Assembly (NCBI RefSeq): GCF_056712565.1
Contig: NZ_CM160072.1
DNA: 64,000 nt
Strand: one strand, 5' to 3'
Position numbers: made by a program. Below are positions 30,001-33,000 of this stretch, in pieces (position 1 is the first letter of the stretch; each line of letters starts with the position of its first letter).

Positions 30001-33000
30001 CCGTATATATATCAAGGCCAACAAATAAATTTAGCATATATTAGATTACGCCATTTTGAATTTACGAACGGAGGCATTATCAGTGACTTTCACGGCGTGG
30101 GCAAAGTGAAATATCATTTTTTAACGATAAAAAGCGTGTTATTTCTTGTGTATCAGACAATAAGCCTTCATTCAAAACCTTTAGAAATAATCAAAACACA
30201 GGTATTTCACTTGTTAATATATTCATATATAAAATGAATAAATATTGAAATATATAAATATTGAATATTTTGATTAATCCCCGTACTGATTATTCTTCAT
30301 AATCAGTACGGGGTTGCTACAACATGTATTACTCTTTCACCACAATTAACGGTTCAATATCACTCTCTTTTTTGATGACCAGTGATTCATCACCGCGCAA
30401 ACACGTCCCACCGTAGTTGCCGCCAACGGTGAAAGTACATACCTGAATGTATTTACCGTCCACTTTCGGCAAACACCACAGTTGCTGGTAAATATTTTTC
30501 TGTTCGGCAAATTTACCACTGGTTTTGTCCAGCACCTCTTCATGATGGCTGACCAGGTCAATGTTGCTACCACAGCGCCCGGCAATCGGTTTAACGGCAT
30601 AACCGGTTTTAACCAGCTCATCATTCACGGTGAAGTCAGTATCCAACAGATAACGATGGTGCGGGAACAGCGACCAGAGGATCGGCAGAATCGCTTTGTT
30701 GCCGGGGATCACCGTCCACAGCGGCTCAAAGACCAGCACTTCCGGGCGCAGCAATACGTCGATAAGACGCACTTCATTTTGCGGATGACCGGTCCGAATC
30801 GGCACTGCGGCAAATTCACGGTCGCTCACTTCGCGGATTTGATCAAATGCCGTTTCCCACGCCCAGGTTTTCCATACGCAGTTAACCTGTCGCCCTTCTC
30901 CATCAATCAGTTGCCCGGCAGCATCCCAACGCAGTTCCTCTAACCCGCGTAAAATACGCGTTTCAAAGCCTGCTTGTTGCAGCGCCTGCTCCATAAACTG
31001 CGCGTGATAGTTTTCCTCGATATCTTTGTCCTGCATGATATGGACAAACGGACGTGCACGACTGTGTTTCCAGGCACCAGCCAGTTCGTTAATCAGTCCT
31101 TCCGCAGGATTGAAGCCGTTGCCTTTATAGCCCTGCTCCGCCCAACGTTCGAGGATCAAGCCCGCTTCGGTATGACAGGAGGCAGAATCGGCGTTGTATT
31201 CGTAGACTTTCAGGCCACGTTCATCCATGCAGAAATCCATACGACCAGTGATCATATGATGACGGCGACGCTGCCAGGAGAGACGCAAACGTGGCCAGAG
31301 GATTTTCGGAATGTCGAACAACGCCAGCAGGTTGTCATCTTTCAGCACCTTGTCGGTGGCGTGAAGATACATCAGGTGCAGCTCGTTGGTGGCTTTAATC
31401 AACTCCTGCTCGGCGCTCTCGGTAATGGTGTAGTAATGATACGGATCCTGATTGATCACCTGACCGTTGGCCTGTACATAGGCGTTTTGCAGCGGATCTT
31501 TTTCATCCAGCCATTTACCGTCAAACTGGCCTTTGTTTTCCAGACGCGCCCCGCTGATTTTCAGCAGTTCGCCTGCAATTTCCGGCTGTGGCAAGCTGTA
31601 TTCGGTATCTTCCGTCTGGATCATCCAGCCCAGAATAGTGGTGTCATCGAAGGTGTCTTTCAGGGTATAGCCGCCGTTTTCGACCACCATCTCCAGCTCG
31701 CGTGTCCACTGTTGTCCTTGCGGCAACGGGGTATGAATCACGTTCTGTTCCGCAATACGGACTTTGTTGCCATGCAATTGGGTAATGATGGCGACATGGC
31801 CAGTGTCTTTAAATTCACCGCCTTTATCCCAGATAAGAAGCGCCCCCGCTACCGGTGCACGCGGCGAACCGTTAGGAAATGCCTGCAATGGCAGGATGTT
31901 GTCATTGACCACTTCACGCAGGAAGCGCAGTGAGAAAATCTCCCATGCCATACCCACGTCAGTGAAGACTACACCGTAGTTCAGAAAGAGAAAACGGCGA
32001 GCAAATTCAACGCATTGCCATTTGTGGCCCATATATTCATCGTCGATATAGCTACGGAATACGGCGTCATCTTCGTATTCCTGCGGATCGAGAGAACTGT
32101 AATCTGAAGAGTAGATTGCTACCCCACCTGGGGCGTAGCCCAATAATGTCCCGAACGGGGCATCCTGGCTGGTCGTTCCTTTGCTCATCACTTTACCTTT
32201 AACAATACAACCTAAGCAGTTGGCGTAATTGTTGTGCTCTGATTACCTGCTCAGCGACATTAACCGGACAGAGGTCAGACTAATCATACACCTCATCGCA
32301 GCGGCTGGCGCAAAGGGTTAAAAAATTCACATTCTGTACAGCAAGTGACCTGCTACACTGCTTCAACACTACCACTCAGAAGGCAACTCACTATGACAGA
32401 CAATACTTATCAGCCCGCGAAAGTCTGGACGTGGGATAAATCCGCTGGCGGCGCGTTCGCCAATATCAATCGCCCGGTTTCTGGTCCGACGCATGAAAAA
32501 ACGCTGCCGGTGGGCAAACATCCATTGCAACTTTATTCGCTGGGAACGCCGAACGGTCAGAAAGTAACGATTATGCTTGAGGAGCTGCTGGCACTGGGCG
32601 TTACTGGTGCAGAGTACGACGCCTGGCTGATTCGCATTGGCGATGGCGATCAATTCTCCAGCGGCTTTGTCGAAGTGAACCCGAATTCGAAGATCCCGGC
32701 ATTGCGCGATCATACCCATAATCCGCCGATCCGCGTGTTTGAGTCAGGCTCGATTCTGCTTTATCTGGCGGAGAAATTTGGCTACTTCTTGCCGCAGGAT
32801 CTGGCAAAGCGTACTGAAACGATGAGCTGGCTGTTCTGGTTACAGGGCGCGGCACCGTTCCTCGGCGGTGGTTTTGGTCACTTTTACCATTACGCGCCGG
32901 TGAAAATTGAGTACGCCATCAACCGCTTTACTATGGAAGCCAAGCGCCTTCTCGACGTGCTGGATAAGCAACTGGCGCAGCATAAGTTTGTTGCGGGCGA

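What the first reader, a model, noticed from the sequence alone, without database searches (positions are those of the whole stretch)
30241..30316. Perfect 15-bp palindrome plus AT-rich direct repeats between gss and pitB
The perfect inverted repeat ccccgtactgattat / ataatcagtacgggg (30279-30313, 5-nt loop) lies 16 bp after the gss stop and about 240 bp upstream of pitB. It is preceded by direct repeats of aatattgaa(a)tat (30241-30269). A 15-bp perfect stem is longer than typical terminators and could also be a protein-binding operator; it may couple gss termination to pitB promoter control.
Basis: seen in the sequence. Interest (0 to 1): 0.25.

Follow-up and report, generated by a model that had tools for sequence, protein, structure and literature searches.

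The report
gss mRNA 3'-end hairpin, U-tract lost
The palindrome is an ordinary RNA stem-loop at the end of the E. coli gss transcript, kept by selection for base pairing, and the AT-rich repeats beside it are poorly conserved low-complexity spacer DNA.

Summary
A perfect 15-bp inverted repeat with a 5-nt loop lies at 30279-30313, 15 nt after the gss stop and 241 nt before the pitB start. Both genes are on the minus strand. It is single-copy and present in about 5,400 of 5,426 complete E. coli genomes.

Natural variation shows selection for pairing, not for sequence. Two stem pairs changed on both sides (U-A to C-G, C-G to U-A), with intermediates seen. Six of seven one-sided changes give G·U pairs only in the gss-sense RNA.

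Of 77 Enterobacteriaceae species, 37 have a canonical terminator within 120 nt after the gss stop. Three Citrobacter species have a similar CCCCGT…ACGGGG hairpin at the same place, two with a U-rich tail by the scan rule. In Escherichia the tail is AUUAAUCA, so it is not a canonical intrinsic terminator. It fits best the U-less 3'-end stem-loops described for Rho-dependent transcripts, or a weak terminator.

I found no support for an operator role. The repeats (12-mer twice, 16-bp spacing) exceed chance in this strain. They are polymorphic in E. coli and absent in E. albertii.

No experimental gss 3' end was found in the tables I could reach. Verdict: ordinary, low interest.

The parts
30279..30313 (-). 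RNA stem-loop at the gss mRNA 3' end: 15-bp perfect stem, GAAGA loop in the gss sense, about -24.8 kcal/mol
   Evidence: The variation keeps pairing.
30314..30328 (-). 15-nt spacer between the gss stop codon and the base of the hairpin
30329..32188 (-). gss CDS (bifunctional glutathionylspermidine amidase/synthase, 619 aa)
   Evidence: RefSeq annotation of the identical ATCC 11775 locus.
30264..30278 (-). Tail after the stem, AUUAAUCAAAAUAUU: 3 U in the first 8 nt, so not a canonical U-tract
   Evidence: The terminator rule did not call it. U count. Composition downstream.
30238..30269 (.). AT-rich tandem duplication: two 16-bp units sharing the exact 12-mer ATAAATATTGAA, or about 3.9 copies of AAATATTG. 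Polymorphic within E. coli.
   Evidence: Polymorphism. Not conserved in L009 or L010.
30076..30104 (-). The only sigma-70-like promoter match on the pitB strand in the spacer (TTGCCC-17-GATAAT), about 30 nt upstream of the pitB ATG
   Evidence: It roughly coincides with a sigma-S RNA polymerase SELEX peak in the pitB-gsp spacer (PMC5493296). The coordinate conversion is my inference.
28538..30037 (-). pitB CDS (inorganic phosphate transporter). It follows gss only in Escherichia.

Best explanation
The palindrome is transcribed as the last structured element of the gss mRNA. It acts at the RNA level as a 3'-end stem-loop.

It most likely descends from an intrinsic terminator. Related Citrobacter species have a similar hairpin at the same position, in two of them followed by a tail that meets the scan's U-tract rule. 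In Escherichia, pitB-containing AT-rich DNA lies directly against the stem and the U-tract is gone.

The hairpin therefore probably terminates only weakly by itself. Its main role would be to define and protect the gss 3' end from 3'-to-5' exonucleases, after RNA polymerase stops further downstream in the untranslated AT-rich spacer (Rho-dependent or diffuse termination).

The AT-rich repeats are low-complexity spacer DNA with no demonstrated role.

Shown: the structure, its conservation, selection on pairing, a strand bias towards the gss sense, and the absence of a canonical U-tract. Inferred: the actual 3' end, Rho involvement, and the evolutionary loss of the tail.
For: - Position and strand: the hairpin is 15 nt after the gss stop, on the gss strand.
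- Copy number and spread: it is single-copy and present in 5402 of 5426 E. coli genomes. The 49-nt stretch is identical in 4035 of them.
- Variation across nine Escherichia alleles: 97.8% of pair cells form standard pairs, and two pairs changed on both sides. Only 2 of 500 shuffles reached the observed pairing percentage or the covariation score.
- Intermediates are visible. U-A goes to U-G (L096) and then C-G (ECA64 type). C-G goes to C·A (L126, L131) and then U-A (L119).
- Strand bias: six of seven one-sided changes give G·U only in the gss-sense RNA. Sense RNA pairs 132 of 135 cells; antisense pairs 126 of 135. Antisense folding loses 5-8 kcal/mol in alleles B, C, G and in E. albertii.
- Other species: 37 of 77 have a canonical terminator-like site within 120 nt after the gss stop, against 29 of 385 control segments inside gss.
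- Citrobacter L011, L014 and L015 have a CCCCGT…ACGGGG hairpin at the same spot. By my reading of the printed sequences its stem holds G·U pairs. L014 and L015 meet the scan's U-tail rule at that hairpin; L011 has UUUUAAC, which did not.
- The E. coli tail has 3 U in 8 nt and the terminator rule does not call it.
- This matches the description of Rho-dependent 3' ends in E. coli: stable stem-loops without a U-tract or an upstream A-tract, with C over G downstream (PMC6061677). Here the first 60 nt downstream hold 4 C and 1 G.
Against: - No mapped gss 3' end was found in the tables I could reach: Adams 2021, TERMITe and SMRT-Cappable-seq. Termination or processing at the hairpin is therefore unproven.
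- The downstream RNA is G-poor but also very C-poor (about 7% C), so it is not a convincing rut site.
- One natural allele (L126, L131) carries a C·A mismatch in the sense RNA that would pair in the antisense.
- The strand bias of 6 to 1 is only p of about 0.06.
- Several variant alleles come from low-coverage metagenome contigs.
- 76 E. coli genomes with 3-4 differences in the 49-nt stretch were not inspected.
- Homology with the Citrobacter hairpins is judged by eye from position and the stem-base sequence.
Confidence: 0.72

Rival explanations
1. It is a fully functional intrinsic (Rho-independent) terminator despite its imperfect tail. The long stable stem plus the all-A/U-but-one hybrid (AUUAAUCA) would release RNA polymerase efficiently, and no Rho or trimming would be needed.
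For: - The stem is very stable (-24.8 kcal/mol) with a G/C-rich base.
- The tail is 7 of 8 A/U.
- The same position holds canonical terminators in 37 of 77 species.
Against: - Only 3 U in the 8 nt after the stem, so the terminator rule does not call it.
- E. albertii (GGGAGCAUGUCC) and Escherichia sp. L010 (GGGGAAUAAUC) have still less U after a conserved stem.
Confidence: 0.2
2. It is a DNA palindrome acting as an operator for a dimeric regulator of pitB. The AT-rich repeats would be additional binding sites.
For: - The majority allele has perfect dyad symmetry.
- The element lies in the pitB upstream spacer.
Against: - One-sided substitutions in common alleles (BL21 type, O157 type) break the DNA symmetry while keeping RNA pairing. 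Changes on both sides restore pairing, which is not what half-site recognition predicts.
- The element is about 200 bp upstream of the only promoter-like site.
- A hairpin at this spot exists in species that lack pitB.
- There is no PhoB binding or regulation at pitB (PMC10294691).
- The repeats are not conserved in E. albertii or L010.
Confidence: 0.04
3. It is a terminator or structural element of a plus-strand (antisense to gss) transcript started in the spacer, for example from the promoter-like site at 30206-30235.
For: - There is a plus-strand promoter-like match, TTCACT-18-TAAAAT.
- A perfect palindrome folds equally well on both strands.
Against: - The number of promoter matches is no higher than in shuffles (3 found against a mean of 2.7).
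- The plus-strand tail UUGCUACAAC is not a U-tract.
- Six of seven one-sided variants would be A·C mismatches on this strand.
- No Rfam family reached its gathering score.
Confidence: 0.03
4. It is a neutral relic: an ancestral terminator stem that persists by inertia and no longer does anything.
For: - The U-tract has been lost.
- gss is weakly expressed, judging by the absence of mapped 3' ends.
Against: - The stem positions vary about as often as the flanking spacer (5 of 30 against about 27 of 243 variable columns in alignment A1, my count), yet pairing is retained.
- My own arithmetic (not a tool result): four successive transitions forming two complementary pairs have a chance of about 0.004.
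- The stem is retained in E. albertii and Escherichia sp. L010 while the adjacent spacer diverges.
Confidence: 0.08

Closest known systems
[quoted passage not shown]
   Same: - A stable stem-loop just after the coding region.
- No U-rich tail and no upstream A-tract.
- G-poor sequence downstream.
- Not a REP element.
   Different: - No Term-seq 3' end, bicyclomycin sensitivity or exonuclease-mutant data for gss were available to me.
- The downstream RNA is also C-poor, which is atypical for a rut site.
Canonical intrinsic (Rho-independent) terminators, as found after gss in Citrobacter, Enterobacter, Lelliottia and others
   Same: - The same position and strand relative to the gss stop.
- A G/C-rich stem base.
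- A similar CCCCGT…ACGGGG stem in Citrobacter L011, L014 and L015.
   Different: - The Escherichia version lacks the U-tract (3 U in 8 nt).
- The stem is longer (15 bp perfect) and A/U-rich in its upper two thirds.
REP/BIME extragenic palindromes
   Same: - An extragenic palindrome at a gene's 3' end that can act as an exonuclease barrier.
- By my reading of the sequences, some other species (Kluyvera L043, L050; L076) have REP-like repeats after gss.
   Different: The element is single-copy in the genome and has no REP consensus.

Membership tests
Canonical intrinsic terminator | Stable G/C-containing stem-loop on the sense strand just downstream of the gene | tested here: met
   15-bp stem at -24.8 kcal/mol, with five G/C pairs at its base, 15 nt after the gss stop.
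Canonical intrinsic terminator | U-tract directly after the stem (at least 5 U in 8 nt by the rule used here) | tested here: not met
   The tail is AUUAAUCA, with 3 U in 8 nt. The scan did not call it. E. albertii and L010 are no better.
Canonical intrinsic terminator | Factor-independent release of RNA polymerase at the site | not testable with these tools
   This needs in vitro transcription.
Protective 3' stem-loop of Rho-dependent transcripts (Dar and Sorek 2018) | Stable stem-loop without a U-rich tail and without an upstream A-tract | tested here: met
   The sequence upstream of the stem is GUUGUAGCAA.
Protective 3' stem-loop of Rho-dependent transcripts (Dar and Sorek 2018) | C-over-G bias (rut) immediately downstream | tested here: inconclusive
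   There are 4 C and 1 G in the first 60 nt and 7 C and 4 G in the first 80 nt, but C is only about 7% of the bases.
Protective 3' stem-loop of Rho-dependent transcripts (Dar and Sorek 2018) | Steady-state RNA 3' end at the stem base, longer transcripts with bicyclomycin or in pnp/rnb mutants | not testable with these tools
   No gss entry was found in the supplementary tables I could reach. The Dar and Sorek tables are not held.
REP/BIME or other dispersed palindromic repeat | Many copies per genome | tested here: not met
   The median is 1 place per genome and the highest is 2, across 5402 genomes. There is only one copy in the window.
Palindromic operator of a dimeric transcription factor | Half-site sequence conserved; variation does not follow base-pairing rules | tested here: not met
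   The variation preserves RNA pairing (97.8% of cells) and includes two compensatory pairs. One-sided changes break the DNA symmetry.
Palindromic operator of a dimeric transcription factor | Bound by a regulator and placed at or near the regulated promoter | tested here: inconclusive
   It lies about 200 bp upstream of the only promoter-like match. No PhoB binding was detected at pitB. No other binding data were found.
Described RNA family (Rfam 15) | Match at or above a family's gathering score | tested here: not met
   The best match is rli38 at 34.7 bits against a gathering score of 49. All matches are below threshold.

The most novel reading that the evidence does not exclude
The U-less hairpin is a leaky, condition-dependent terminator or insulator. 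Read-through from gss (a redox and polyamine enzyme gene) would then feed or interfere with the pitB promoter region. Expression of the acquired phosphate transporter would be coupled to gss transcription, with Rho and nucleoid proteins on the AT-rich repeat spacer setting the level.
Probability: 0.08. Interest if true: 0.3.

Novelty: new member of a known kind. Interest (0 to 1): 0.12.

Why it matters
The matter is modest. It gives a clear, unannotated example of a gene-end stem-loop kept by selection for pairing, with compensatory substitutions and their intermediates visible within one species. It also suggests how a canonical terminator can lose its U-tract when foreign DNA (the pitB region, which lies between gss and tRNA-Phe pheV) comes to lie against it. 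For annotation, it marks the 3' boundary of the gss transcription unit. It also argues against reading the palindrome as a pitB operator.

Tried and rejected
- Rfam search of 29500-31000 at a permissive E-value found only sub-threshold chance matches.
- I looked for an experimental gss or pitB 3' end or transcription start in the supplements of Adams 2021, TERMITe 2025 and SMRT-Cappable-seq 2018. Nothing was found.
- The supplements of Dar and Sorek 2018, Choe 2022 and the nanopore paper are not held.
- Harris 2001, the pitB regulation paper, is not held.
- Text searches for gss/pitB/terminator, glutathionylspermidine plus pitB, and pitB plus bicyclomycin gave nothing relevant.
- I first took the 'pitB tsEPOD' of Bryant 2014 as evidence that the spacer is protein-silenced. 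By my conversion of their coordinates (3131588-3133385, older MG1655 numbering), it covers yghT and the pitB 3' end, not the gss-pitB spacer. I dropped that argument.
- Repeated-element explanation (REP or MITE): rejected, because the element is single-copy.
- A cryptic-clade allele like L010 might have explained the 76 divergent E. coli genomes. No such allele is present in the collection, so those genomes remain uninspected.

Full report
**What is there**

The window matches E. coli ATCC 11775 at 100% over the 401-nt query around the finding. Its RefSeq annotation places gss at 30329-32188 and pitB at 28538-30037, both on the minus strand.

The inverted repeat is exactly as reported. The arms are 30279-30293 and 30299-30313, each 15 nt and 100% complementary, with a 5-nt loop. 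It starts 15 nt after the gss stop codon and ends 241 nt before the pitB ATG.

No perfect stem longer than 11 bp appeared in 2000 dinucleotide-preserving shuffles of the 291-nt spacer. It is also the longest such palindrome in the 64-kb window. The RNA hairpin folds at about -24.8 kcal/mol.

The spacer is very AT-rich: 24% G+C in the 200-nt window at 30100-30299.

The repeats are real. An exact 12-mer, ATAAATATTGAA, occurs at 30238 and 30254. Only 7 of 2000 shuffles did as well. TRF sees about 3.9 copies of AAATATTG with a low score of 39.

**Is it a known or repeated element?**

No Rfam family reached its gathering score. The element is single-copy: 5404 places in 5402 of 5426 complete E. coli genomes, and one copy in the window. 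It is therefore not a REP, BIME or MITE-type repeat.

**Variation within Escherichia**

The 49-nt stretch around the hairpin is identical in 4035 genomes. Another 1291 differ at one or two positions, and 76 differ at three or four; those 76 were not inspected.

Alleles came from fetched genomes and from 37 metagenome contigs:

| Allele | Found in | Change relative to the majority |
|---|---|---|
| A | window, K-12, majority of genomes | none (perfect stem) |
| B | BL21 type | G-C to G-U |
| C | O157 type | C-G to U-G and U-A to U-G |
| D | ECA64 type | U-A to C-G, changed on both sides |
| G | L096 | the U-G intermediate of D, plus another C-G to U-G |
| E | L126, L131 | D plus a C·A mismatch at pair 4 |
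| F | L119 | that mismatch compensated to U-A |

E. albertii (L009) and Escherichia sp. L010 keep the stem, each with further G·U changes, while the sequence next to it diverges.

On the nine-allele alignment, 97.8% of pair cells are standard pairs. Two pairs changed on both sides. Only 2 of 500 shuffles reached the observed pairing percentage or the covariation score. Sliding the partners drops pairing to 30-47%.

- The alignment comes from close relatives and the structure was derived from one of them, so these controls are indicative only.
- My own arithmetic (not a tool result): four successive transitions in 30 stem positions form two complementary pairs with a probability of about 0.004.

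Stem positions vary about as often as the flanking spacer: 5 of 30 against about 27 of 243 variable columns, my count. The signal is conservation of pairing, not of sequence.

**Which strand?**

- Six of seven one-sided changes yield G·U in the gss-sense RNA and would be A·C in the antisense RNA.
- Sense RNA pairs 132 of 135 cells. Antisense pairs 126 of 135.
- Antisense folding energy falls by 5-8 kcal/mol in four alleles.
- The bias is suggestive (p of about 0.06), not conclusive. Allele E is the one exception.
- By my reading of the sequences, the similar Citrobacter hairpins hold several G·U pairs in their stems, which can only pair in the gss sense.

**Other species**

A scan of one genome per species gave 80 gss loci. 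Of these, 77 had an intact gss reading frame.

- 37 of the 77 have a canonical terminator-like site within 120 nt after the gss stop. The control was 29 of 385 segments inside gss.
- Most of the rest have a stable hairpin without a U-tract. My hairpin search takes the best of many windows and had no matched control, so this second point is weaker.
- pitB follows gss only in Escherichia.
- Citrobacter sp. MGH106 (L011), C. werkmanii (L014) and Citrobacter sp. Cu233 (L015) have a CCCCGT…ACGGGG hairpin 8-12 nt after the stop. The tails are UUUUAAC, UUAUUUGA and UUGUAUGU. L014 and L015 meet the scan's U-tail rule at that hairpin; L011 does not.
- In E. coli the tail is AUUAAUCA, with 3 U in 8 nt, and the terminator rule does not call it.

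In C. werkmanii a convergent tRNA-Phe lies about 110 nt after gss. In K-12 the corresponding pheV gene is 26 kb away.

I infer that the pitB-containing DNA was inserted between pheV and the gss hairpin, and that the original U-rich tail was lost at that junction. Homology with the Citrobacter hairpins is judged by eye.

**Mechanism**

The features fit what Dar and Sorek reported for E. coli Rho-dependent transcripts (PMC6061677):

- precise steady-state 3' ends just after stable stem-loops
- no U-tract and no upstream A-tract
- the structures protect against PNPase and RNase II
- C over G downstream

Here the first 60 nt downstream hold 4 C and 1 G. C is scarce overall, so a rut site is not evident.

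The alternative is a weak, non-canonical intrinsic terminator. I cannot separate the two readings without transcript-end data, and I found none for gss.

**pitB side**

- The only sigma-70-like match on the pitB strand is TTGCCC-17-GATAAT at 30104-30076.
- A genomic SELEX study lists a sigma-S RNA polymerase peak at 3134436 in the 'pitB < < gsp' spacer (PMC5493296).
- Converted from the older MG1655 numbering, that peak is about window 30079. The roughly 1,977-bp offset is from my own knowledge, so this is inference.
- The hairpin and repeats therefore lie about 170-240 bp upstream of the likely pitB start, which is far for an operator.
- PhoB neither binds nor regulates pitB in ChIP-seq and RNA-seq (PMC10294691).

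**The repeats**

The second copy is the most variable spot of the spacer. In the pitB/gss sense it reads TTTCAATATTT, TTCCAATATTT or TTCAAATATTT, depending on the lineage. The repeat is not recognisable in E. albertii or L010.

The simplest reading is a small tandem duplication in low-complexity AT-rich DNA. A role as nucleoid-protein binding DNA is possible but untested.

**Verdict**

The operator side is not supported. This is an ordinary instance of a well-known kind of element, with a tidy population-level signature of compensatory evolution.

Noticed in passing
L094 (GD33), L095 (360D-1), L004 (E70); corresponds to window about 30270-30335: IS1 copies sit 4 nt after the hairpin (GD33), inside its 3' arm (360D-1) or at the end of gss (E70). 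In the last two, pitB is deleted and yghT-like kinase genes follow. The AT-rich junction looks like a recurrent IS1 target.
   Followed up: partly
L014 4970-5045 (also L048, L074); K-12 NC_000913.3 3110366-3110441: A tRNA-Phe gene convergent with gss lies about 110 nt after gss in Citrobacter werkmanii. In K-12, pheV is 26 kb from gss, and there is no tRNA in the 64-kb window. pitB and its neighbours therefore appear to be DNA inserted at pheV, with the gss hairpin as one boundary.
   Followed up: partly
L003 (E. coli O157:H7-type strain 86-24), pitB: pitB is annotated as a pseudogene (incomplete, missing its C-terminus) in this strain.
   Followed up: no
window 21121-21151, 44230-44258, 62347-62378: These are the other perfect inverted repeats of 11-13 bp with 3-8 nt loops in the window. 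They are probably terminators but were not examined.
   Followed up: no
window 29953-30237 (+ strand); L002 476-715: A plus-strand ORF that overlaps the pitB start and the spacer is annotated as a hypothetical protein (WP_181875816.1) in one of the 20 sampled E. coli genomes. It is probably a spurious call in AT-rich DNA.
   Followed up: no
window 30076-30104 (- strand): The only promoter-like site for pitB roughly coincides with a published sigma-S RNA polymerase SELEX peak in the pitB-gsp spacer. The coordinate conversion is mine.
   Followed up: partly
E. coli genome collection, 49-nt stretch at window 30272-30320: 76 genomes differ at 3-4 positions from the window allele. The sampling never listed them, so their stems are unknown.
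   Followed up: partly
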